Part shown: one piece after another, positions 2,197 to 20,107 of the stretch | Layout: each line of letters begins with the position of its first letter | Numbering within the stretch: position 1 is the stretch's first letter | Source of the DNA: Leptothoe kymatousa TAU-MAC 1615 | GTDB lineage: Bacteria; Cyanobacteriota; Cyanobacteriia; Phormidesmidales; Phormidesmidaceae | Length of the DNA stretch: 32,000 bases | Reading direction: 5' to 3' | Assembly (NCBI RefSeq): GCF_018739865.1 | Contig: NZ_JADOER010000001.1 | Coordinates: 61,899 to 93,898, forward strand | Made by a program: the position numbers and the translations under genes | Notes under the pieces: model-generated | Databases searched by the model: none | What the model was told of the DNA's origin: nothing | Seen by the model: the letters and a program-made list of their open reading frames with translations, nothing else

Positions 2197-2270
2197 TCGG
2201 GATGACTGGATTCGAACCAGCGGCCCCTTCGTCCCGAACGAAGTGCGCTACCAAACTGCGCTACATCCCG
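2197..2270 (-). tRNA. tRNA-Pro (anticodon CGG)
   Basis: The minus-strand sequence is CGGGATG-TA-GCGC-AGTTTGGTA-GCGC-A-CTTCG-TTCGGGA-CGAAG-GGGCC-GCTGG-TTCGAAT-CCAGT-CATCCCG-A. It folds as a 74-nt cloverleaf with a 7-bp acceptor stem, a 5-bp anticodon stem and a TTCGAAT T-loop. The anticodon loop TTCGGGA gives CGG. No CCA is encoded. Confidence 0.93.
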
Positions 2271-11162: not shown

Positions 11163-12446
11163 ATGAAACAAGTTTTCACCAACAATACGGCAGTACCCAT
11201 TTCGCGGTTTGCCCCCACCAGTGTTAGTTCCAACCTTAACGTTGCCAATATTCCTGGATCGTTACAGCGCATTACGGTCACCCTCAACCTGGTGCACACC
11301 TTTACCGAAGATCTAAGCATCTCTCTATTAGCCCCCAATGGCTCGTCTATTCTATTAGTCGGTAATGAAGGCGGCAGTGGCGACAACTTTTTCGACACCA
11401 CCTTCGACGACGAAGCAGGGGTGCCCATCACCCAGGGCAGAGCGCCTTTTCAAGGTACATTTCGGCCAGAACAGCCCCTGGCCACCTTGCTCAGCAGTGA
11501 CCCCAACGGCACCTGGTCTTTACAGATTCAAGACCAGGCCTTTTTCGATGGCGGCGTGCTCAATCGCTGGTCCCTAGAGCTAGTTTTTGATAGCCCGGTG
11601 CCCGAGCCCGAGCCCACGCCAACTCCCACGCCAACTCCCACGCCCACGCCCACCCCGACGCCCACGCCTGCTCCAGTATCGCAGTTCACCATCGAAATCC
11701 GCTTCCTAGGTGGTCTCACCGCATCTCAGCGGGCCGTATTTGAAACCGCCGCCGCCCGTTGGCAAGAGATTATTATTGGCGATCTACCCACTACAACCAT
11801 CGACGGTGAGACCATCGATGATGTGCGGATCGAAGCGCGGGGCCTTTCCATCGATGGTCCCAACGGTGTGTTGGGGCGGGCAGGTCCCACCCGGTTGCGC
11901 AGTGGTTCGTTGTTGCCTGCCACCGGCGTGATGGAGTTCGACATTGGTGACCTAGCCCGACTAGAGGCCGAGGGGGGCCTGTTGGATGTCATTATCCACG
12001 AGATGGGCCATGTGCTAGGCATTGGCACCATCTGGCAAACCCAGAACTTGTTGGTGGGGGCAGGCACCGCCAACCCGCAATATGTGGGCCAAAATGGTAT
12101 GCGAGAGTTTTCTACCCTGATTGCGGCCCAAGGGATGACACCAATCCCCGTGGCCAATACCGGTGGCCAGGGCACCCGCGATGGCCATTGGCGCGAAGCT
12201 GTTTTTGGCAATGAGCTAATGACCGGCTTCTTAAACCGGGGGCCAAATCCCCTGAGTCGTTTGACCGTAGGTTCCTTAGAAGATTTGGGCTATGCGGTGA
12301 ACTATACGGCGGCAGATCCCTATGGGCTACCGTCGTCGCTAATGTTAGCGGTGATGGGCGTTAACACCGCTGGGGACTACGGCCATCGTCAGTGTCGCAT
12401 GTGCGATGCGGGCATATTGGGGAATCACTTTTTCCCTCAGGTGTAG
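11163..12446 (+). CDS. Zinc metalloprotease, leishmanolysin (M8)-like catalytic domain preceded by an N-terminal P-domain and a (Thr-Pro)n linker
   Basis: The N-terminal ~140 aa ('ITVTLNLVHTFTEDLSISLLAPNGSSILL ... GTWSLQIQD ... WSLELVF') fit the proprotein-convertase P-domain pattern. The linker is 'PEPEPTPTPTPTPTPTPTPTPAP'. The zinc site is 'VIIHEMGHVLG', with a further His 63 residues after the first in 'RDGHWREAVFGNELMTG', which is like the leishmanolysin family signature. There is no N-terminal hydrophobic signal segment. Confidence 0.8.
   Translation: MKQVFTNNTAVPISRFAPTSVSSNLNVANIPGSLQRITVTLNLVHTFTEDLSISLLAPNGSSILLVGNEGGSGDNFFDTTFDDEAGVPITQGRAPFQGTFRPEQPLATLLSSDPNGTWSLQIQDQAFFDGGVLNRWSLELVFDSPVPEPEPTPTPTPTPTPTPTPTPTPAPVSQFTIEIRFLGGLTASQRAVFETAAARWQEIIIGDLPTTTIDGETIDDVRIEARGLSIDGPNGVLGRAGPTRLRSGSLLPATGVMEFDIGDLARLEAEGGLLDVIIHEMGHVLGIGTIWQTQNLLVGAGTANPQYVGQNGMREFSTLIAAQGMTPIPVANTGGQGTRDGHWREAVFGNELMTGFLNRGPNPLSRLTVGSLEDLGYAVNYTAADPYGLPSSLMLAVMGVNTAGDYGHRQCRMCDAGILGNHFFPQV
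11601..11675 (+). repeat. Coding low-complexity (Pro-Glu)2(Thr-Pro)n tract
   Basis: The sequence is 'cccgagcccgagcccacgccaactcccacgccaactcccacgcccacgcccaccccgacgcccacgcctgctcca'. It includes a perfect 12-nt duplication (cccacgccaact x2). Confidence 0.9.
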
Positions 12447-12775: not shown

Positions 12776-13855
12776 ATGCCTAAAATCCTGATTCTTGGGG
12801 CGAATCCTAACGGTACTACACGACTACGCTTAGATACAGAAGTCCGAGATATCAGCGATGGGTTAGAACGAGCCAAGCGGCGTGATGAGTTTCAGATTGC
12901 CCAGCGGTGGGCCGTGCGACCCCGCGACCTGCAGCGGGCCATGCTGGATGAACAGCCCCAAATCGTACATTTCTCTGGCCATGGGGAAGGGGAAACGGGG
13001 CTATATTTTGAGGATGAAGTTGGCAATGCGCAGCTGGTGACAGGGGACGCGTTGGCTGGGCTGTTTAAGTTATTTAAGAGCCAGCTACAGTGCGTGGTGC
13101 TAAATGGCTGCTATTCCGAAGTGCAGGCCGAAGCGATTTCGGCCCATATTCCCTATGTTATCGGCATGCGGGATGGGGTAAAGGATACGGCAGCCATTGA
13201 GTTTGCGGTTGGTTTCTATGACGCCCTAGGCACTGGGCAGTCGGTGGAGTTTGCCTTTGAGTTTGGCAAAGCGGCCATGGCCCTAGGCGGAGTGGGCGAC
13301 GAAGATTTGCCTGTGTTGCTCCAGTCGGAAACAGGCTCTGCTAGTGGTGGGTCGCCTGCAGCACCTGCCCCCTCGACCCCGTCAAAGCCGGTGGATCCCA
13401 ATCAGCCCTTGAACGTGTTTATTTCCTATTCCCATCGGGATGAAGACCTCAAGGAAGAGCTGGAGGTGCATCTGTCCACCCTGAAGCGACAAAAGAAAAT
13501 TAAACCCTGGCAGGATCGGTCCATTGAGGCCGGAACAGAATGGGACGATGAAATTAAAACCGCCCTGGAAAATGCCCAGATCATCCTGATGCTGGTAACA
13601 CCCCGGTTTATGGCCTCGGACTACATCAACGACATTGAGCTAGCCCATGCCATGAAACGCCACAATGCCGGCACCGCACGGGTGATTCCCATTATCCTCA
13701 AACCGTCGGATGTCAAAGATACGCCATTGAGTAACCTCCAGGCATTGCCCAAGGATGCCAAGCCAGTCACCCGCTGGGATGACCAGGATGAAGCCTTTTT
13801 GGATGTGGTCAAGGGCATTCGTCGGGTGGTAGATTCCCTCACTAAAAACCCTTAG
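12776..13855 (+). CDS. Two-domain effector protein: N-terminal compact caspase/CHAT-like domain + C-terminal TIR domain
   Basis: Residues 1-180 carry 'IVHFSGHG' (His65/His69) and 'VVLNGCYS' (Cys112), the His...Cys order of caspase-fold CHAT domains. Residues 181-210 are a Pro/Ser/Ala linker. Residues 211-345 show the TIR pattern: 'VFISYSHRD', 'WQDRSIEAGTEWDDEI' and 'IILMLVTPRFMASDYINDIELAHA', with candidate catalytic Glu288. Confidence 0.82.
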   Translation: MPKILILGANPNGTTRLRLDTEVRDISDGLERAKRRDEFQIAQRWAVRPRDLQRAMLDEQPQIVHFSGHGEGETGLYFEDEVGNAQLVTGDALAGLFKLFKSQLQCVVLNGCYSEVQAEAISAHIPYVIGMRDGVKDTAAIEFAVGFYDALGTGQSVEFAFEFGKAAMALGGVGDEDLPVLLQSETGSASGGSPAAPAPSTPSKPVDPNQPLNVFISYSHRDEDLKEELEVHLSTLKRQKKIKPWQDRSIEAGTEWDDEIKTALENAQIILMLVTPRFMASDYINDIELAHAMKRHNAGTARVIPIILKPSDVKDTPLSNLQALPKDAKPVTRWDDQDEAFLDVVKGIRRVVDSLTKNP

Positions 13856-13941
13856 CCGCCTCTTCGACTCCGGAGGATGCCCCTGCGGAGAGGCGAGATA
13901 CGGTATCAAAATCCCCAATTCCAGAGCAAACTCTGGGGTAT

Positions 13942-16020
13942 TTGTCCCCTAGCGTGCCGCGACTGCCACCCAAATTTTTACCAAGGTCAGAAGATTTAGG
14001 CGTGCTCAAAACGACAATCTTAGGGTCTAGTCAGCCGCCGGTGGCGGTCACCGGCACCCGACGGGGGCTTAGCATTCAGGGCATGGGGGGCATTGGCAAG
14101 TCGGTGTTGGCGGCGGCCCTTGCCCGGGATAGTGCGGTGCGTCAGGCATTTGCCGATGGGGTGTATTGGGTGTCCCTAGGCCAGGAGCCCAATGTGCTGT
14201 CGTTGCAGACGGAATTAGCACGGGAATTGGGTGACAAAACACCGGACTTTAGTGATGTGTCGGGGGGTAAAAAGTTTTTGACCGAGCTGCTGGCACCGCA
14301 GCGTTGTTTTGTGGTGTTGGATGATATTTGGGATGAACAACATCTGCGGGCATTTGATGTATTGGGGGACCAGGGCCAGATGCTGGTCACCACCCGCGAT
14401 AGTAGCTTGGTGACGGGCATTGGTGCGGTGGAGCACTCGTTGAATTTATTGTCGCCTGACCAGGCCAGGGTGTTGTTGGCGAGGTGGACCGGCTGTGGGG
14501 TAACGGAGCTGCCAACCGAGGCGGATAAGATTGCCAGGGAATGTGGCTATTTGCCCCTGGCGCTGGCCATGGCGGGGGCCATGCTGAAGAAAAGTCGTCG
14601 TTGGGAGTCGGTGTTGCAGCGGCTGCAGCGGGCAGACCTGGATAAGATTCGGCAACAGTTCCCGGACTATGACTATCCAGACCTGCTGAAGATGCTGCAG
14701 GTGAGTGTGGATGCTTTGGAGCCAGAGCTGCAGGAGAGATATTTAGACTTTGCGGTATTTCCAGAGGATGCGCGCATACCGGAGGCGGTATTGCAGACGC
14801 TGTGGGCACCTGTGGGCCTGGATGAGCTGGATGTGGTGGATATTTTGGATGACCTGGTGGCCAAGTCGTTGTTGCGACGGGACGATCAGGAGAATTTGTT
14901 TCTCCATGATTTGCAGTATGACTACATTGGTAAGCAGGTAAAGGATTTGCCTGGGCTGCATCAGCGGTGGTTGGATGCGTATAAAGAAAAATGTGGGCAG
15001 GGTTGGGCCAGCTGCCCCCAGGATGGCTACTTTTTTGGTCAGCTGACGCGGCATTTAAAAGAGGCGGGGCAGGTGGATCAGCTGCGCAGTTTGTTGTTTG
15101 ACTATGACTGGCTGCGGGCACAGCTAACGGCCAATGGCATCAATGGTTTGCTGGCAGATTATGACTGGCTAACGGATGACAAACTGTTGCAGCTGTTGCA
15201 GAGCACATTGCGGCTATCGGCCCATGTGTTGGCCACTAAACCACAACAGCTAAACCAGAGGCTCTGGGGCCACCTGAGGGATAGGGAACAACCAGAATTT
15301 AGCACGTTGTTAACCGAGGGGGCCGCGCAACAACCATCACTGTGGCTGCAACCCCAGCAAGCTAACCTGACGGCCCCCGATGGGGCATTGTTGCGTACCT
15401 TTGAGGGCCATAGCGGCGAGGTCATGTCCGTGGCGCTGAGTGAGGATGGCCGTCATGCGCTGTCAGGGTCATACGACAAGACGATGAAACTGTGGGATGT
15501 GACGACGGGAGAGGCGTTGCGCACCTTTGAGGGCCATAGCGGCGGGGTCAGGTCCGTGGCGCTGAGTGAGGATGGCCGTCATGCGCTGTCAGGGTCAGAA
15601 GACAAGACGATGAAACTGTGGGATGTGACGACGGGAGAGGCGTTGCGCACCTTTGAGGGCCATAGCGGCTGGGTCAGGTCCGTGGCGCTGAGTGAGGATG
15701 GCCGTCATGCGCTGTCAGGGTCATCCGACAATACGATGAAACTGTGGGATGTGACGACGGGAGAGGCGTTGCGCACCTTTGAGGGCCATAGCGGCTGGGT
15801 CGGGTCCGTGGCGCTGAGTGAGGATGGCCGTCATGCGCTGTCAGGGTCATCCGACAATACGATAAAACTGTGGGATCTGACCACGGACAACTGTTTAGCC
15901 ACCTTCTGTGGCGACCATTCATTCTATGCCTGTGACCTATCTGCCGATGGCGTCACCATTGTTGCGGGCGACCAAGCAGGCACCGTCCATTTCTTTTCTG
16001 TTATCACACCAGAGCCTTAG
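13942..16020 (+). CDS. STAND NTPase of the NB-ARC / Apaf-1 (AP-ATPase) type with C-terminal WD40 repeats and no N-terminal effector domain
   Basis: NB-ARC motifs are Walker A 'GMGGIGKS', Walker B 'CFVVLDDIWD', 'LVTTRD', 'GYLPLALAMAG' and the MHD-equivalent 'LFLHDL'. A helical region 'LLFDYDWLRAQL...LLADYDWL' resembles Apaf-1 HD2. Four near-identical WD40 units plus one degenerate unit follow. The start is uncertain: TTG 13942 or GTG 13954. The first ATG (14083) lies inside the Walker A motif. Confidence 0.85.
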   Translation: MSPSVPRLPPKFLPRSEDLGVLKTTILGSSQPPVAVTGTRRGLSIQGMGGIGKSVLAAALARDSAVRQAFADGVYWVSLGQEPNVLSLQTELARELGDKTPDFSDVSGGKKFLTELLAPQRCFVVLDDIWDEQHLRAFDVLGDQGQMLVTTRDSSLVTGIGAVEHSLNLLSPDQARVLLARWTGCGVTELPTEADKIARECGYLPLALAMAGAMLKKSRRWESVLQRLQRADLDKIRQQFPDYDYPDLLKMLQVSVDALEPELQERYLDFAVFPEDARIPEAVLQTLWAPVGLDELDVVDILDDLVAKSLLRRDDQENLFLHDLQYDYIGKQVKDLPGLHQRWLDAYKEKCGQGWASCPQDGYFFGQLTRHLKEAGQVDQLRSLLFDYDWLRAQLTANGINGLLADYDWLTDDKLLQLLQSTLRLSAHVLATKPQQLNQRLWGHLRDREQPEFSTLLTEGAAQQPSLWLQPQQANLTAPDGALLRTFEGHSGEVMSVALSEDGRHALSGSYDKTMKLWDVTTGEALRTFEGHSGGVRSVALSEDGRHALSGSEDKTMKLWDVTTGEALRTFEGHSGWVRSVALSEDGRHALSGSSDNTMKLWDVTTGEALRTFEGHSGWVGSVALSEDGRHALSGSSDNTIKLWDLTTDNCLATFCGDHSFYACDLSADGVTIVAGDQAGTVHFFSVITPEP
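15391..15894 (+). repeat. Four tandem 126-bp (42-codon) near-identical WD40-coding units
   Basis: Units start at 15391, 15517, 15643 and 15769. Units 1-3 differ from their neighbour at only 5 of 126 nt. Each encodes 'LRTFEGHSGxVxSVALSEDGRHALSGSxDxTMKLWDVTTGEA'. Confidence 0.97.
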
Positions 16021-16894: not shown

Positions 16895-19800
16895 ATGCTG
16901 ACCTCTACTCCTATCGTTGATGTCACAACCCAACCAACATCGGTAGCCCTTCCAAACCAAACAACAACCCAACATACCGTTATCCTCGATTCACAAATTG
17001 AGGACCTAAACCTACTGCTGGATGGTTTACGAGCAGATGTCACAGCCCATGTGCTCACAGCCCATGAGGATGGATTACAGCAAATCACTGCGTTTCTAAC
17101 GCAACATCCCACACAGCACCTAACCCTCCTGGCCCATGGCTTCCCCGGTGGTATGCGCCTGGGGGCAACCACCGTAGACATTAACCACTTAGACACTCAC
17201 ACTCCGCAGCTGCAGCAGTGGTTTGCCCCCACCGCCCCGGCAAAACTAACTCTAATGGCTTGTAATGTGGCCCAAGGGGATGCGGGGCAGGCGTTTATTC
17301 AACAACTTGCGACCGTTACCGCCGCTGATGTTACGGCCAGCGTCAATGTTTTGGGTAATGGCGTTTGGCTACCCGCTGCTAAGGCGTTGTTTACGCCGGC
17401 AACCCTGGCGGCCTACCGTGGCACCCTGCAATGGTCAACTGTGGGTGCCGGGGCCATTGCCCCCCAGATTGACAACGACTTTGACATTGAAATAGACAGC
17501 CAGGGTACGCCCTATATTATTTTCCAGGATGATGCCAATGGCGTGACGGTGAAACGGTTCGATGGCCTCAATTGGGTGGATGTGGGGGTGCCCGGTTTTC
17601 CGGAGGGCAATGCTAGCTTTGTCGGCCTAGAATTTGGCCTGAATGATACCCCCTATGTGGTCTTTAAGGATGATGCCAATAACAGCCGGGCCACGGTGAT
17701 GCAGTTTAATGGCACCGACTGGGCCTATGTGGGTGATCCTGGCTTTTCGCCGGGAGGGTTTAAGGACATTAACATGAAGTTCTACGGTGATGCGCCCTAT
17801 GTGGTGTTCACCGATAGAACCCAAAATTCCCGGGCCACGGTGATGGTCTTTGATGGCCTCAGTTGGGAAACGGTGGGCAACCCTGGCTTTTCCACTGGGG
17901 CGGTGGCCGCCTCTGATATCAACATTGATGGCAACGGTGTGCCCTATGTGGCCTATGTGTCTGGGGAAGAGGGCTTCGAACAGGTCTCTGTGCAGCGATT
18001 TATCAATGGCCAGTGGAGCTTTGTTGGCGCGGAAGGATTTTCGGTGGGGGCGGAGGCTGCCAGACCGGATATTGAGTTTGATAATAACAATGTGCCCTAC
18101 CTTGTTTACCGGGCTCGGGGCAACGGCGAAGGCAATAAGGCCATTGTGCAATCGTTTAATGGCACCGACTGGATCAAAGTGGGCAGCAATGATGCGTCCA
18201 TTGCCGGTGGTTTCCACCCCGATCTGGAGTTTGACCAGAACAATGTTCTCAATCTGGCGATTGTGGACCAGGCTCTGAAAGATAAGGTCTCGGTGCGCAT
18301 CCTGAATCCAGATAATACCTGGGGCTATTTGGATGATAGTGGTTTCTCGTTGGGGCCAACAAACTTCCCAGACCTGGAGTTTGATAGCAACAACCTGCCC
18401 TATGTGCTCTATCGTGAGACGTTTGACGCCAATGGGGATGTTGCATCCAGCGCCGTGGTAAAACGTTTGGGCGAACCCGCTACGGTGGTGGATAATATCG
18501 CCCCTGTGTTGGCCAGTGTGAGTCGCAAAACTCCCCTTGGGGCGACGGTCCCTAGTGGCACTGTGGTGTTTGAGGCGCTCTTTAGTGAGGCGGTGGCCAA
18601 TGTTGGCCCAGAAGATTTTGTGATTAATGGGTTGCCCACGGCCACCATTGATGCGGTAACGACGACAGACAGCACTCGCTATGACATTGCGGTGACGGCC
18701 ACTGGCGCAGCCGGTAGCGTTTTTGGGCTAGATTTAGCTACGGTGTCTGACATTGTGGATATTGCGGGCAATGGGTTAACCCTGGCAGAGCCCACTGTGG
18801 ATGAGGCATATACCCTTGCGGGACCTTTGGTGGCCCCTGTGCTATCCAGCATCCGTCGCAAAACGCCCGTTGAGGCTGCGGTTACTGGTAATAGCACCCT
18901 GGTATTTGAGGCCACCTTTAGTGAGGGGGTGGTCAACGTTGGCCCAGAAGATTTTGTGATTAATGGGTTGCCCACGGCCACCATTGCCGGGGTAACGGCT
19001 GTGGACGCCACTCGCTATGACATTGCGGTGACGGCCAATGTGGGGGATGCCGCCAGTGGCACGGTTGGTTTAGATTTGGCCGCAGTTTCGGATATTGTCA
19101 ACGCTGCGGGGACGGCCTTAACGCTGGTCGAGCCGACGGTGGATCAGGCGTATACCGTTACGGCCCCAGGGACTGTGGCCCCAGCGCCTCCGGCCACCCC
19201 TGTGGTTGAGCCTCCTACCCCCCCCGTTGTATTGCCTGAGGTGGTAACGCCCGTTGCACCTGGTGCGCTGACGATTTTACCCAGTGTGAATCGGGTGGAA
19301 GTGACATCTCTAGGCACCGATAATACGCTGCAGCTAACATTTCGAGGGGGGCAGGTGACGAATGTCCCCGACATTCTGGTCTTTGATGAGGCGGATGCGC
19401 TGATTGGCCAGTTTTCCTTGCTGGATTCTGATGACCTAGCTGCGGGGTATACGTCTCGGTTTACCATCAGTAGCAATGCCATTAGTGTTGGTCAGAGTTT
19501 GCAGTTTGCGATTCAGGATGGGGAGACGACCTGGTTTGCAGACCCCGCAAGGCTATCCGACTCTGAAGCTCTGTTGAGGTTTGGCAATGGGTTTAGCTTT
19601 AATGTGGGATTGGCGACCGAAACGGGTAGTACGAACCTATTGGTAAATGATGCGGAGTCTATTGACCTGACGGGGCAGGCGTCTGGCACCATCAGTTTCT
19701 CGGTGTATCGAGAGGCGGCGATGGATAATACGGTGGATTTGTATACAACTGATTTTGCCGATGGTGGCATTGTTGATGCGTTCACTGGGCGCACCTTGAT

Positions 19801-20107
19801 GCCCGGTGATGCTGGCTATAGGGCAGCGGCCATTTCTAATCGGTTAAATCTCAACCTATCGGGCACCAACGGTCAGGTTAATACGGTGGATGCGGCGGTT
19901 ACCGGCGGCATGCATCTCGGCATTTTTGTGGTGATCGATGGCATAGACCCTGCCGTTGGCGAGGTTGTGTTTAGCCACAGTGGAGCCAATGCCAATGGGG
20001 CGGACCACATTAAACACCTGGGCGACAATTCTTTTGGCATTGAAGATCAGGCTGGGTTGGGCGATAAAGACTTTGACGATATTGTTTTACAGTTTTCTGT
20101 TGCCTAG
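16895..20107 (+). CDS. Large multidomain protein: DUF4347-like N-terminus, seven ~50-aa propeller-like repeats, two Ig-like repeats, Pro-rich linker, DUF4114-like C-terminus
   Basis: The N-terminus 'VILDSQIEDL...LTLLAHGFPGGMRLG...LTLMACNVAQGDAGQAFIQQLA' has a DUF4347-like pattern. Seven repeats follow the form 'D(I/L)EFDxxxxPYVxY...xATVxxFNGTDWxxVGxPGFS' (aa ~190-528). Two ~112-aa repeats ('RKTP...VFEA.FSE.V.NVGPEDFVINGLPTATI...RYDIAVTA') share a 49-nt identical block. The C-terminal 'FGIEDQAGLGDKDFDDIVLQF' is DUF4114-like. There is no signal peptide. Confidence 0.8.
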   Translation: MLTSTPIVDVTTQPTSVALPNQTTTQHTVILDSQIEDLNLLLDGLRADVTAHVLTAHEDGLQQITAFLTQHPTQHLTLLAHGFPGGMRLGATTVDINHLDTHTPQLQQWFAPTAPAKLTLMACNVAQGDAGQAFIQQLATVTAADVTASVNVLGNGVWLPAAKALFTPATLAAYRGTLQWSTVGAGAIAPQIDNDFDIEIDSQGTPYIIFQDDANGVTVKRFDGLNWVDVGVPGFPEGNASFVGLEFGLNDTPYVVFKDDANNSRATVMQFNGTDWAYVGDPGFSPGGFKDINMKFYGDAPYVVFTDRTQNSRATVMVFDGLSWETVGNPGFSTGAVAASDINIDGNGVPYVAYVSGEEGFEQVSVQRFINGQWSFVGAEGFSVGAEAARPDIEFDNNNVPYLVYRARGNGEGNKAIVQSFNGTDWIKVGSNDASIAGGFHPDLEFDQNNVLNLAIVDQALKDKVSVRILNPDNTWGYLDDSGFSLGPTNFPDLEFDSNNLPYVLYRETFDANGDVASSAVVKRLGEPATVVDNIAPVLASVSRKTPLGATVPSGTVVFEALFSEAVANVGPEDFVINGLPTATIDAVTTTDSTRYDIAVTATGAAGSVFGLDLATVSDIVDIAGNGLTLAEPTVDEAYTLAGPLVAPVLSSIRRKTPVEAAVTGNSTLVFEATFSEGVVNVGPEDFVINGLPTATIAGVTAVDATRYDIAVTANVGDAASGTVGLDLAAVSDIVNAAGTALTLVEPTVDQAYTVTAPGTVAPAPPATPVVEPPTPPVVLPEVVTPVAPGALTILPSVNRVEVTSLGTDNTLQLTFRGGQVTNVPDILVFDEADALIGQFSLLDSDDLAAGYTSRFTISSNAISVGQSLQFAIQDGETTWFADPARLSDSEALLRFGNGFSFNVGLATETGSTNLLVNDAESIDLTGQASGTISFSVYREAAMDNTVDLYTTDFADGGIVDAFTGRTLMPGDAGYRAAAISNRLNLNLSGTNGQVNTVDAAVTGGMHLGIFVVIDGIDPAVGEVVFSHSGANANGADHIKHLGDNSFGIEDQAGLGDKDFDDIVLQFSVA

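What the first reader, a model, noticed from the sequence alone, without database searches (positions are those of the whole stretch)
15391..15894. WD40 sensor built from near-identical 126-bp units whose few differences are almost all non-synonymous and fall on predicted top-face hotspot codons
Seen in sequence:
- There are four tandem 126-bp units. Units 1-3 differ from their neighbour at 5 of 126 nt.
- Among units 1-3 only one difference is synonymous (cgt/cgc). The rest change codons 10 (E/G/W), 12 (M/R/R), 28 (Y/E/S) and 30 (K/K/N) of the 42-codon unit.
- Unit 4 adds W/G at codons 10/12 and M->I at codon 32, then diverges at its 3' end.

Established knowledge:
- In WD40 propellers, the two residues at the start of strand a (here GHSG-x-V-x) and the residue before the conserved Asp of the b-c turn (S-x-D) are the classic top-face interaction hotspots.
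- Fungal NLR-type STAND proteins (the HET-E/NWD class) show the same combination. Their repeats are homogenised by concerted evolution, with diversifying selection at these positions.

Inference:
- This is a rapidly evolving recognition surface generated by repeat shuffling. That fits a non-self sensor.
- Only 4 clear blades plus 1 degenerate blade are present, fewer than the usual 7. Either the propeller is unusual or oligomer-completed, or near-identical repeats were collapsed during assembly.
Basis: partly seen in the sequence, partly recalled or inferred. Interest (0 to 1): 0.72.

Follow-up and report, generated by a model that had tools for sequence, protein, structure and literature searches.

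The report
Self-similar WD40 sensor of cyanobacterial NLR
The repeats are real: they are the sensor end of an Apaf-1-like immune-type ATPase of the cyanobacterium Leptothoe kymatousa, near-identical except at the ligand-contacting positions, a pattern already described in fungi and noted in bacteria, and the low repeat count is probably a short-read assembly artefact.

Summary
Observation confirmed. Positions 15391-15894 hold four in-frame 126-bp units, then a degenerate cap unit to 16020. Units 1-3 differ at 8 sites: one synonymous, seven in codons 10, 12, 28 and 30.

The ORF (13942-16020) is NB-ARC + APAF1_C + WD40. It matches a Leptothoe kymatousa protein at 100%. A CHAT-like/TIR effector ORF lies directly upstream.

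Codons 10, 12 and 28 are the published top-face hotspots R1-2, R1 and D-1. In 20 high-identity arrays of this family, the same codons (28, 12, 9, 10, 30) are the variable ones. Their non-synonymous divergence exceeds synonymous divergence in 20 of 20 arrays, and the rest of the unit is under purifying selection.

The count of 4+1 units is doubtful:
- The genome was assembled from 100-nt Illumina reads.
- The closest complete relatives have 13+1 units.
- The AlphaFold model superposes on five blades of seven-bladed propellers.

Unexpected extra: in 26 of 26 split loci the NB-ARC ORF lies in the -1 frame of the effector ORF. The junction carries a slip-prone site (C CCT TAG here; A AAA AAG or A9 elsewhere). 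This suggests programmed frameshifting or transcriptional slippage.

The parts
12776..13855 (+). ORF1, 359 aa. It has an N-terminal small CHAT/caspase-like protease domain (His in HFSGHG at 12968-12985, Cys in LNGCYS at 13100-13117) and a TIR domain (about 13412-13843). The stop is TAG at 13853-13855.
   Evidence: Pfam gives TIR_2 at 1.4e-17 and CHAT at 5.7e-10. PADLOC gives ThsB-like TIR at 3.4e-50. dN/dS against L001 is 0.11.
13843..13855 (+). Candidate -1 recoding site, TAAAAACCCTTAG. The 0 frame reads ACT AAA AAC CCT TAG. The -1 frame has a TAA stop at 13843-13845 and then reads AAA CCC TTA GCC. The two open frames therefore overlap only at 13846-13852. The likely slip is tRNA-Pro moving from CCT to CCC with TAG in the A site.
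   Evidence: Read directly from the sequence. C CCT TAR is conserved in L007, L001, L064, L067, L002 and L003.
13857..13895 (+). Conserved stem-loop (CGCCUCUUCG...CGGAGAGGCG) starting two nucleotides after the ORF1 stop (the invariant GCCUCU/AGAGGC core starts three after). It is a candidate frameshift stimulator.
   Evidence: MFE is -21.4 kcal/mol, z=-2.0. The structure is conserved in 7 loci, but 8 of 10 basal pairs never vary, so covariation is inconclusive.
13846..13941 (+). Linker translated in the ORF2 frame (KPLAASSTPEDAPAERRDTVSKSPIPEQTLGY). It has no ATG, GTG or TTG before 13942.
   Evidence: The distance from the ORF1 stop to the VPxLP codon is 59-215 nt in 11 loci and always 2 mod 3. 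Linker dN/dS is 0.26-0.72 in 9 of 10 pairs (1.21 in one), with lower pS than the flanking genes.
13942..16020 (+). ORF2 as listed mechanically (692 aa from TTG). It encodes the NB-ARC - APAF1_C - WD40 receptor.
   Evidence: It is 100% identical to P0001, an NB-ARC protein of Leptothoe kymatousa.
14068..14712 (+). NB-ARC NTPase domain. Motifs: Walker A GMGGIGKS (14080-14103), Walker B VVLDDIW (14311-14331), TTRD, GYLPLAL and LHD (14902-).
   Evidence: Pfam NB-ARC at 1.7e-31. Motif positions. dN/dS is 0.06-0.09 against L001 and L002.
14947..15243 (+). APAF-1 helical domain (PF17908).
   Evidence: Pfam at 2.6e-12.
15343..15357 (+). Beta-strand (WLQPQ) predicted upstream of the first repeat. It is a candidate closure strand of the propeller.
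   Evidence: DSSP strand E38-42 of model m7d85abf1f61c.
15391..15894 (+). Four near-identical 126-bp WD40 units. Hot codons 10, 12, 28, 30 lie at 15418-20, 15424-26, 15472-74, 15478-80 in unit 1, and at +126 nt for each following unit.
   Evidence: Pfam WD40 at 1.4e-50 with 4 stretches.
15895..16020 (+). Degenerate C-terminal cap WD unit (LATFCGD...DGVTIVAGDQAGTVHFF), conserved throughout the family, plus the stop codon.

Best explanation
What it is (shown):
- The array is the C-terminal ligand-sensing WD40 domain of an Apaf-1-like STAND NTPase (a bacterial NLR-type receptor) of Leptothoe kymatousa.
- The repeats form WD40 blades whose framework is kept almost identical within the gene.
- Within-gene framework identity is higher than identity to the orthologue's repeats, so the units have been homogenised or re-duplicated recently.
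- The three published top-face contact positions (R1-2, R1, D-1) and the residue after the conserved Asp are kept different from blade to blade. Non-synonymous change there exceeds synonymous change, across the whole family.

How the pattern arises (inferred):
- Homogenisation most plausibly works by unequal crossing-over or gene conversion between units.
- Selection for new binding specificities keeps the hotspot residues diverse.

How the receptor works (inferred by analogy with Apaf-1, Avs/bNACHT and plant TIR-NLRs):
- A foreign protein binds the variable top face.
- Binding releases the NB-ARC module to oligomerise.
- Oligomerisation brings the CHAT-like protease and TIR domains together and triggers a suicidal or growth-arresting response.

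Repeat number:
- The assembled count of four units plus cap is probably a lower bound, not the true number.
For: Identity and architecture:
- NB-ARC at 1.7e-31, APAF1_C at 2.6e-12 and WD40 at 1.4e-50, with intact Walker A and B motifs.
- ORF1 is CHAT-like + TIR.
- NOD dN/dS is 0.06-0.09 and ORF1 dN/dS is 0.11, so both genes are under purifying selection.

Hotspots:
- Codons 10, 12 and 28 are R1-2, R1 and D-1 by the published rule.
- Secondary structure in the AlphaFold2 model (pLDDT 85.8, pTM 0.79) puts them at the start of strand a and in the b-c turn.
- In 20 high-identity arrays the top five variable codons are 28, 12, 9, 10 and 30.
- Pooled dN/dS is 1.82 for hot codons and 0.39 for the rest.
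- Hot-codon pN exceeds array-wide pS in 20 of 20 arrays.
- The window's variable sites fall in those codons with P=7e-7.

Homogenisation:
- Framework nucleotide identity is 0.95 within the window array and 0.87 against L001 units. The NOD region is only 76% identical.

Variation among relatives:
- Relatives such as P0087, L001, P0008 and P0009 share the framework but carry other hotspot residues.

Literature:
- The same regime is described for fungal NWD genes.
- Hotspot diversity is noted in prokaryotic highly repetitive WD40 proteins.
- The regime is proposed for bacterial NLRs.
- Apaf-1-like WD40 STANDs are reported in cyanobacteria.
Against: - There are no functional data. The ligand, the oligomerisation and the effector activity are all inferred.
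- With four units there is no four-gamete conflict, so shuffling within this gene is not demonstrated.
- Hot codons were chosen from the same 19 arrays on which most of the dN/dS contrast is computed. Only the window test is independent.
- Many arrays are related Nostocales paralogues, so the 20 of 20 result is not 20 independent trials.
- Within-array pN/pS under gene conversion is not a standard phylogenetic test.
- The order and number of units in a 100-nt-read assembly may be wrong.
- The model's coordinates could not be inspected. 'Top face' therefore rests on secondary structure plus the published rule.
Confidence: 0.72

Rival explanations
1. The array is under-assembled. The real gene has more near-identical units (7 or 14 in total), and short reads collapsed those that could not be told apart. 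This rivals the '4+1 blades' reading, not the diversification reading.
For: - The strain was sequenced with Illumina paired-end 100-nt reads and assembled with SPAdes 3.5 plus Platanus.
- The longest exact repeat in the assembled array is 69 nt and every 77-mer is unique. The assembly therefore holds exactly the units that 100-nt reads can distinguish.
- The closest complete relatives (L002, L005, L006) have 13 units plus cap. Nearly complete reference genomes and one long-contig MAG carry 13-15 units plus cap behind full-length NOD matches (L023, L024, L034, L033).
- In the window's own clade every other assembly breaks or collapses in the array: L001 and P0003 end at a contig end, and P0004, P0005 and P0087 have 1 unit plus cap.
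- P0008 and P0009 are nearly identical proteins whose single internal unit differs mainly at three hot codons and one flanking codon.
- The model superposes on about 200 residues of 7-bladed propellers at 1.3 A rmsd. The first LRTFEG segment is not in a strand. This indicates an open five-of-seven arc.
- Long reads were needed to reconstruct the analogous fungal alleles (PMC12222747).
Against: - Arrays of 4+cap and 3+cap also occur where units are only 70-80% identical and less likely to collapse (P0013, L017).
- Read depth could not be examined.
Confidence: 0.55
2. The locus is decaying. The array has truly contracted and the effector ORF has been separated by a frameshift mutation, so the pattern is a relic and not a working sensor.
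For: - In long-contig assemblies the short arrays seen belong to degraded genes. L055 (4+cap, complete genome) lacks the whole P-loop half. L057 (1+cap) and L056 (2+cap) give fragmentary NOD matches.
- L063 keeps ORF1 but has lost the NB-ARC gene.
Against: - NOD and ORF1 are under strong purifying selection (dN/dS 0.06-0.11) and all motifs are intact.
- The ORF1/ORF2 -1 arrangement is conserved in 26 loci with slip-prone sites, which is not a random lesion.
Confidence: 0.12
3. Neutral recent duplication. The units are simply young copies, and the variable positions are unconstrained surface loops, not positively selected ones.
For: - Hu 2017 interprets high internal identity as recent duplication.
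- The window alone shows no significant excess of non-synonymous change (P=0.24).
Against: - Relaxed constraint gives dN/dS up to 1. Hot codons give 1.82 pooled, and their pN is 1.2-6.3 times array-wide pS in 20 of 20 arrays.
- Codon 28 differs at two or three nucleotides between every pair of units 1-3 (all three between units 1 and 2), while the 111-nt framework of units 1-3 has one change.
- The same codons vary in distant lineages, including archaea.
Confidence: 0.08
4. Targeted mutagenesis (DGR-like), or a 'eukaryotic-like protein' used by the sponge symbiont to manipulate its host, rather than an intracellular immune sensor.
For: - DGRs diversify sensors of NLR-like proteins in multicellular bacteria (PMC10907252).
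- The genome paper lists WD40 proteins among the eukaryotic-like repeat proteins it looked for in these sponge symbionts.
Against: - No template copy of the unit exists elsewhere in the window, and no reverse transcriptase was found among the ORFs scanned.
- Substitutions are not confined to adenine-templated positions.
- The family is widespread in free-living cyanobacteria and filamentous methanogens, always behind an NB-ARC module.
Confidence: 0.03

Closest known systems
Podospora anserina HET-E / HET-D / HET-R and the NWD family (fungal NACHT-WD40 NLRs)
   Same: - 42-residue WD40 units with high internal conservation.
- Concerted evolution of the units.
- Repeat-number variation.
- Diversifying selection on a few positions per unit that map to the interaction surface.
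- An N-terminal death or effector domain, since HET is reported to be related to TIR.
   Different: - The NOD here is NB-ARC/Apaf-1-type, not NACHT.
- The effectors are a CHAT-like protease plus TIR, in a separate -1-frame ORF.
- The organism is a cyanobacterium.
- No allorecognition phenotype is known.
- RIP (repeat-induced point mutation, a fungus-specific mutagenic process) cannot contribute.
Apaf-1 / bacterial Apaf-1-like STANDs with WD40 propeller sensors
   Same: - NB-ARC + APAF1_C helical domain + C-terminal WD40 repeats.
- Relatives have 14-16 units, like the 7+8 blades of Apaf-1.
- Cyanobacterial homologues with caspase-like N-termini were reported in 2026 (PMC13581612).
   Different: - Apaf-1 repeats are divergent and recognise one conserved ligand, cytochrome c.
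- Here the repeats are near-identical with variable contact residues.
- The effector is built in or adjacent, not recruited through a CARD domain.
Prokaryotic 'highly repetitive' WD40 proteins (Hu et al. 2017; Thermomonospora curvata WD40, PDB 5YZV)
   Same: - High internal identity with diversity at the predicted hotspot sites.
- 5YZV is the best structural match of the model.
   Different: That study catalogued the proteins and emphasised stability and young age. It did not link the pattern to NLR architecture, compute selection, or address assembly collapse.
Anti-phage STAND NTPases (Avs, bNACHT) and TIR-based abortive infection systems
   Same: A tripartite effector-NTPase-sensor logic and a TIR effector. 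ORF1 matches ThsB-type TIR models.
   Different: - Most characterised sensors are TPR-like, not WD40.
- ORF2 matches no PADLOC system model beyond a weak repeat hit.
- No defence phenotype has been tested.
dnaX, IS3 OrfAB and phage G/GT -1 frameshifting; Thermus dnaX A9 transcriptional slippage (for the junction)
   Same: - An in-phase A AAA AAG or A9 run immediately before the 0-frame stop.
- A narrow overlap of the two frames.
- A downstream hairpin 5-6 nt away in L045.
- In-frame fused orthologues exist.
   Different: - The window itself has the non-canonical C CCT TAG site.
- No experimental evidence exists.
- I found no report of recoding in a STAND/NLR gene in the searched library.

Membership tests
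WD40 repeat (PF00400) | [quoted passage not shown] | tested here: met
   Pfam WD40 at 1.4e-50 with 4 stretches. H7, S25, D29 and W35 are present in all four units. The model matches WD40 propellers at 1.3 A rmsd.
WD40 repeat (PF00400) | A closed propeller, usually of 7 (or 8) blades | tested here: not met
   Only 4 units plus cap are assembled. The model superposes on about five blades of 7-bladed propellers, and the first d-strand is unpaired. This may reflect assembly collapse.
NB-ARC / AP-ATPase STAND NTPase (Apaf-1-like) | P-loop NTPase with Walker A and B motifs matching the NB-ARC profile | tested here: met
   PF00931 at 1.7e-31. GMGGIGKS and VVLDDIW are present.
NB-ARC / AP-ATPase STAND NTPase (Apaf-1-like) | Helical and winged-helix extension (APAF1_C) followed by a C-terminal repeat sensor | tested here: met
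   PF17908 at 2.6e-12 over residues 336-434, followed by the WD40 repeats.
NB-ARC / AP-ATPase STAND NTPase (Apaf-1-like) | N-terminal effector or adaptor domain on the same polypeptide | tested here: inconclusive
   The CHAT-like/TIR module is a separate ORF in the 0 frame and the NOD is in the -1 frame. Fusion would need recoding. Relatives P0007, L040 and L015 are fused in frame.
Repeats with high internal conservation (criterion of Dyrka et al. 2014: over 85% amino-acid identity over at least 100 residues) | Repeat units over 85% identical across at least 100 residues | tested here: met
   Units 1-3 (126 aa) are 90.5-92.9% identical pairwise, and unit 3 vs unit 4 is 85.7%. Units 1 and 2 vs unit 4 fall to about 79-81% because of unit 4's diverged 3' end. 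The criterion is quoted.
Fungal HET-E/NWD family | NACHT-type NOD with an N-terminal HET (or other fungal) domain, in a fungal genome | tested here: not met
   The NOD is NB-ARC, the effectors are CHAT-like and TIR, and the organism is a cyanobacterium. It works like this family but is not a member.
Fungal HET-E/NWD family | Diversifying selection on a few surface positions per repeat, together with concerted evolution | tested here: met
   The tests are within-array pN/pS with the caveats stated in the report, not a site-model test.
Anti-phage defence system (Avs/bNACHT/Thoeris type) | Protection against phage, and recognition by curated defence-system models | not testable with these tools
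   PADLOC: ORF1 matches ThsB-like TIR at 3.4e-50, and ORF2 gives only a weak repeat hit. None of the window ORFs scanned is ThsA-like. The phenotype cannot be tested here.
Programmed -1 ribosomal frameshift site | In-phase slippery sequence within the overlap of the two frames | tested here: inconclusive
   Relatives carry canonical A AAA AAG (L005, L045, L057) or an A9 run (about 20 Nostocales loci). The window has only C CCT TAG, a P-site slip at a stop codon, which is non-canonical.
Programmed -1 ribosomal frameshift site | Downstream stimulatory RNA structure supported by covariation | tested here: inconclusive
   A conserved hairpin has its invariant core three nucleotides after the stop. 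Eight of 10 basal pairs never vary. The covariation score is 0.133 against 0.100 in shuffles, with 16 of 500 shuffles reaching it.
Programmed -1 ribosomal frameshift site | Trans-frame protein product | not testable with these tools
   This needs a western blot, mass spectrometry or a reporter assay.

The most novel reading that the evidence does not exclude
The receptor is made only by recoding.
- A programmed -1 frameshift at C CCT TAG (13849-13855) fuses the CHAT-like/TIR effector to the NB-ARC-WD40 sensor. In relatives the equivalent event would be a slip at A AAA AAG, or transcriptional slippage on A9.
- Most ribosomes would then make free effector, and a minority would make sensor-tethered effector.
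- This would be a conserved, previously undescribed way of setting the stoichiometry, or keeping tight control, of a suicidal immune receptor whose sensor surface is diversified by repeat recombination.
Probability: 0.4. Interest if true: 0.72.

Novelty: new member of a known kind. Interest (0 to 1): 0.45.

Why it matters
For the finding as given:
- It adds a clear bacterial example, plus a 20-array family-level test, to a regime so far demonstrated mainly in fungi: near-identical repeats that vary only at contact residues. For bacterial NLRs this had only been proposed.
- It supports the idea that multicellular prokaryotes diversify intracellular receptors by repeat recombination.

Practical point:
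- Such genes are systematically mis-assembled from short reads.
- Repeat counts and 'unusual propellers' in draft genomes and MAGs should not be taken at face value.

The recoding junction:
- If real, it would be the more consequential result.
- It would be a conserved frameshift or slippage signal between the effector and sensor halves of an NLR-type receptor in many cyanobacteria.
- It would also explain why these genes are annotated as two ORFs, or with wrong start codons.

Tried and rejected
- Excess of non-synonymous change in the window alone: not significant (P=0.24). I relied on clustering and family data instead.
- Four-gamete reasoning on the four units: no conflict, so no direct evidence of shuffling inside this gene.
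- L055, a 4+cap array in a complete genome, looked like proof that five units are real. It is a 5'-truncated remnant without the P-loop.
- Closed five-bladed propeller: not supported. The model fits seven-bladed geometry over about 200 residues.
- DGR-type mutagenesis: no template repeat in the window, no reverse transcriptase among the ORFs scanned, and no adenine-specific pattern.
- Rfam: the only match in the window is a tRNA, so no known frameshift element was found.
- Covariation for the junction hairpin: inconclusive.
- ORF2 starting at the conserved Val codon of VPRLPP: rejected as a general explanation. That codon is GTA in L007 and ATC in L003.
- Amyloid-motif effector/NLR gene pair (Dyrka 2020): by eye I saw no similarity between the ORF1 C-terminus and the ORF2 N-terminus. 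This was not tested formally.
- Literature searches for recoding in STAND/NLR genes found nothing. The library is incomplete, so this is not proof of novelty.
Full report
**1. The observation**

Tandem Repeats Finder reports one long-period array in the window: 15390-15886, period 126, 3.9 copies, 96% matches, no indels, score 889.

Slicing from 15391 gives four in-frame 42-codon units. All begin LRTFEGHSG.

| Comparison | Differences (nt of 126) |
|---|---|
| Unit 1 vs 2 | 5 |
| Unit 2 vs 3 | 5 |
| Unit 1 vs 3 | 6 |
| Unit 3 vs 4 | 11 (9 in the last 18 nt) |

Among units 1-3 only position 6 (CGT/CGC) is synonymous. The other seven variable sites sit in four codons:

| Codon | Unit 1 | Unit 2 | Unit 3 |
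|---|---|---|---|
| 10 | E | G | W |
| 12 | M | R | R |
| 28 | Y | E | S |
| 30 | K | K | N |

Unit 4 has W, G and I at codons 10, 12 and 32. A fifth, degenerate unit runs to the stop at 16020. Every statement in the finding is therefore correct.

Two statistical points need separating:
- One synonymous change out of ten variable sites is not an unusual ratio (binomial P=0.24).
- The clustering of eight of ten variable sites in 15 nt is highly unusual. With the hot codons defined from other genes, the hypergeometric P is 7e-7.

**2. What the gene is**

- The ORF 13942-16020 (692 aa) contains NB-ARC (1.7e-31), the APAF-1 helical domain (2.6e-12) and WD40 repeats (1.4e-50).
- Walker A (GMGGIGKS), Walker B (VVLDDIW) and the LHD motif are intact.
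- It is 100% identical to an NB-ARC protein of Leptothoe kymatousa, a sponge-associated filamentous cyanobacterium.
- Directly upstream, ORF 12776-13855 encodes a small CHAT/caspase-like domain with His and Cys motifs, plus a TIR domain. PADLOC scores the TIR as ThsB-like at 3.4e-50.
- Both genes are under strong purifying selection against their closest relatives. dN/dS is 0.06-0.09 for the NOD and 0.11 for ORF1.
- The flanking genes are ordinary housekeeping and signalling genes.
- The locus is therefore an Apaf-1-like STAND or 'bacterial NLR' receptor. Such receptors were recently reported in cyanobacteria (PMC13581612).

**3. Are the variable codons the contact positions?**

- The unit has the DHSW tetrad and the V-x-S-V pattern.
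- By the published rule (PMC3419727), codon 12 is R1, codon 10 is R1-2 and codon 28 is D-1. These are the three top-face hotspots.
- An AlphaFold2 model of residues 431-692 (pLDDT 85.8, pTM 0.79) agrees. Codon 10 lies just before strand a, codon 12 is its second residue, and codons 28 and 30 are in the b-c turn.
- I could not inspect the coordinates. The 'top face' assignment therefore rests on topology and the published rule.

**4. Does the pattern hold when more units are sampled?**

A scan of species-representative genomes gave 62 related loci. A metagenome scan gave 13 more.

- An HMM of the unit found arrays of 1 to 15 internal units.
- All complete arrays end in the same degenerate cap unit.
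- In the 20 arrays with at least 82% mean internal nucleotide identity, within-array amino-acid entropy and pN peak at codons 28, 12, 9, 10 and 30. The ranking is the same when the window is left out.
- Pooled dN/dS is 1.82 at these codons and 0.39 elsewhere.
- Hot-codon pN exceeds array-wide pS in 20 of 20 arrays, with ratios of 1.2-6.3. The rest of the unit is at 0.13-0.82.

Caveats:
- The arrays are related to one another.
- The hot codons were chosen from the same data, except for the window test.
- Gene conversion complicates pN/pS.

Homogenisation is shown comparatively. With hot codons masked:

| Comparison | Nucleotide identity |
|---|---|
| Window units among themselves | 95% |
| Window units vs units of the closest orthologue (L001) | 87% |
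| NOD region, window vs L001 | 76% |

Relatives keep the framework but carry other hotspot residues. P0087, for example, has the same SVALSEDGRHALSGS framework with G/W/D/N at the hot positions.

**5. How many blades?**

The assembled 4+cap is suspicious for five reasons.

- *Sequencing.* The genome was sequenced with paired-end 100-nt Illumina reads and assembled with SPAdes 3.5 and Platanus (PMC8225149).
- *Resolvability.* The longest exact repeat within the array is 69 nt and all 77-mers are unique. The assembly contains exactly the units such reads can distinguish.
- *Relatives.* The closest complete relatives (L002, L005 Leptothoe spongobia, L006) have 13+cap. Nearly complete reference genomes and one long-contig MAG carry 13-15+cap behind full-length NOD matches.
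- *The window's own clade.* Every other assembly there ends at a contig break inside the array or has a single chimeric unit (L001, P0003, P0004, P0005, P0087). P0008 and P0009 are near-identical proteins whose single internal unit differs mainly at three hot codons and one flanking codon.
- *Structure.* The model superposes on about 200 residues of seven-bladed propellers (5YZV, WDR5) at 1.3 A rmsd. The first LRTFEG segment is not in a strand. The model therefore looks like an open five-of-seven arc and not a closed five-bladed ring.

Evidence on the other side:
- A 4+cap array in a complete genome (L055) turned out to be a 5'-truncated remnant, so it does not help either way.
- Short arrays with only 70-80% identical units do exist (P0013, L017). 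Real contraction cannot be excluded.

I put collapse at about 55%.

**6. Mechanism**

Shown:
- The domain architecture.
- Hotspot-restricted variation.
- Within-gene homogenisation.
- Purifying selection on the rest of the protein.

Inferred:
- Unequal crossing-over or gene conversion among units keeps the framework uniform.
- Selection maintains different contact residues.
- A foreign protein binding the top face releases NB-ARC oligomerisation.
- Oligomerisation activates the CHAT-like protease and TIR domains by proximity.

The four units alone fit a simple duplication tree. 'Shuffling' inside this gene is therefore not demonstrated.

**7. Comparison with what is known**

- The regime is that of the fungal HET-E/NWD genes (PMC1805685, PMC4986451). 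The gene is not a member of that family because it has NB-ARC and not NACHT, and it is cyanobacterial.
- Hu et al. 2017 already noted that prokaryotic highly repetitive WD40 proteins are conserved except at predicted hotspot sites.
- Dyrka et al. 2020 noted high internal conservation in bacterial NLR repeats and proposed the same evolutionary regime.
- The need for long reads to reconstruct such alleles is documented for Podospora (PMC12222747).
- The finding is therefore a new member of a known kind.

**8. An unexpected feature: the junction between the two ORFs**

In the window:
- ORF1 ends ACT AAA AAC CCT TAG.
- The ORF2 frame is -1 relative to ORF1. It is closed by TAA at 13843-13845 and open from 13846. 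The two frames therefore overlap by only 7 nt.
- The ORF2 frame has no ATG, GTG or TTG before 13942.

Across related loci:
- In 26 of 26 loci where a long effector ORF ends just upstream of the NOD, the NOD is in the -1 frame.
- The distance from the ORF1 stop to the conserved VPxLP codon takes eight different values (59-215 nt) in 11 loci. It is always 2 mod 3, so indels in the linker preserve the frame.
- That Val codon is not a start codon in L007 (GTA) or L003 (ATC).

| Junction type | Loci | Notes |
|---|---|---|
| C CCT TAR | window clade, 7 loci | conserved hairpin just after the stop (invariant core at +3) |
| CTA AAA AAG TAR | L005, L045, L057 | in-phase dnaX-type heptamer; in L045 an 11-bp hairpin follows 5 nt later |
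| A9-A10 run | about 20 Nostocales loci | frame overlap confined to the run and the two codons after it, up to the 0-frame stop |

- Variants with one more A (L015) or two fewer nucleotides (L040) are fused in frame.
- L065 has an ATGA stop/start overlap.
- Covariation for the hairpin is inconclusive.
- I found no report of this in the searched literature.

The most economical reading is programmed -1 frameshifting, or transcriptional slippage on the A runs. Either would produce an effector-sensor fusion. Translational coupling of two separate proteins remains possible.

**9. Verdict**

- The phenomenon is already known in kind.
- The low blade count is probably an assembly artefact.
- The recoding junction deserves its own follow-up.

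Noticed in passing
window 13843-13941, and the junctions of L001-L003, L005, L007, L008, L010, L012, L013, L016, L017, L019, L020, L023-L025, L027, L029, L032, L034, L045, L046, L056, L057, L064, L065: The NB-ARC ORF is always in the -1 frame of the upstream CHAT/TIR effector ORF (26 of 26 split loci). The junction carries a slip-prone sequence: C CCT TAG here, A AAA AAG or an A9-A10 run elsewhere. Linker indels are only in multiples of three. Some orthologues are fused in frame. This is a candidate programmed -1 frameshift or transcriptional slippage, and I found no report of it.
   Followed up: yes
window 14002 (annotated start of P0001) versus 13846-13960: The public annotation starts the protein at MLKTTILG. 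That start lies downstream of the family-wide conserved N-terminal motif VPRLPPKFLPRSEDL, which is evidently coding. The annotated start is probably wrong because no ordinary start codon precedes the motif.
   Followed up: partly
P0008 and P0009 (ENA metagenome proteins, 577 aa each): These are two nearly identical proteins, each with a single internal WD unit. The units differ mainly at three hot codons and one flanking codon (W/G, M/R, K/N, M/L). This looks like two different collapses of the same multi-unit array.
   Followed up: partly
L021, L031, L049, L050: Close family members occur in methanogenic archaea (Methanocrinis, Methanosaeta/Methanotrichaceae, Methanomassiliicoccales). They include high-identity arrays: 93% in L031 with 4+cap, and at least 5.7 units in L021. 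This suggests transfer between cyanobacteria and filamentous archaea.
   Followed up: no
L063 5540-5660: A relative keeps the CHAT/TIR ORF and a degraded copy of the junction hairpin but has lost the NB-ARC-WD40 gene. The effector ORF can therefore persist alone.
   Followed up: no
L065 5605-5830: A relative has a 110-nt low-complexity insertion, including an A13 run, at the junction, and an ATGA stop/start overlap. The old junction sequence survives downstream with its stop mutated (CCCCTTCATAGCCTCTGCGG).
   Followed up: partly
L055 4040-5428: In a complete Phormidium genome the homologue is a 5'-truncated remnant. It lacks the P-loop half but still carries four 95%-identical units plus cap.
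   Followed up: yes
window 11612-11668: A hexamer repeat (GCCCAC x 9.5) encodes a (Pro-Thr)n linker inside a secreted-type protease ORF (P-domain plus leishmanolysin-like, 11163-12446). This is ordinary.
   Followed up: yes
window 2197-2270 (- strand): A tRNA-Pro (CGG) gene. It is the only Rfam or ARAGORN hit in the window.
   Followed up: yes
window 16895-20107: A large ORF (1070 aa) with DUF4347 and DUF4114 domains lies immediately downstream of the receptor gene. Any relation to the receptor is unknown.
   Followed up: no
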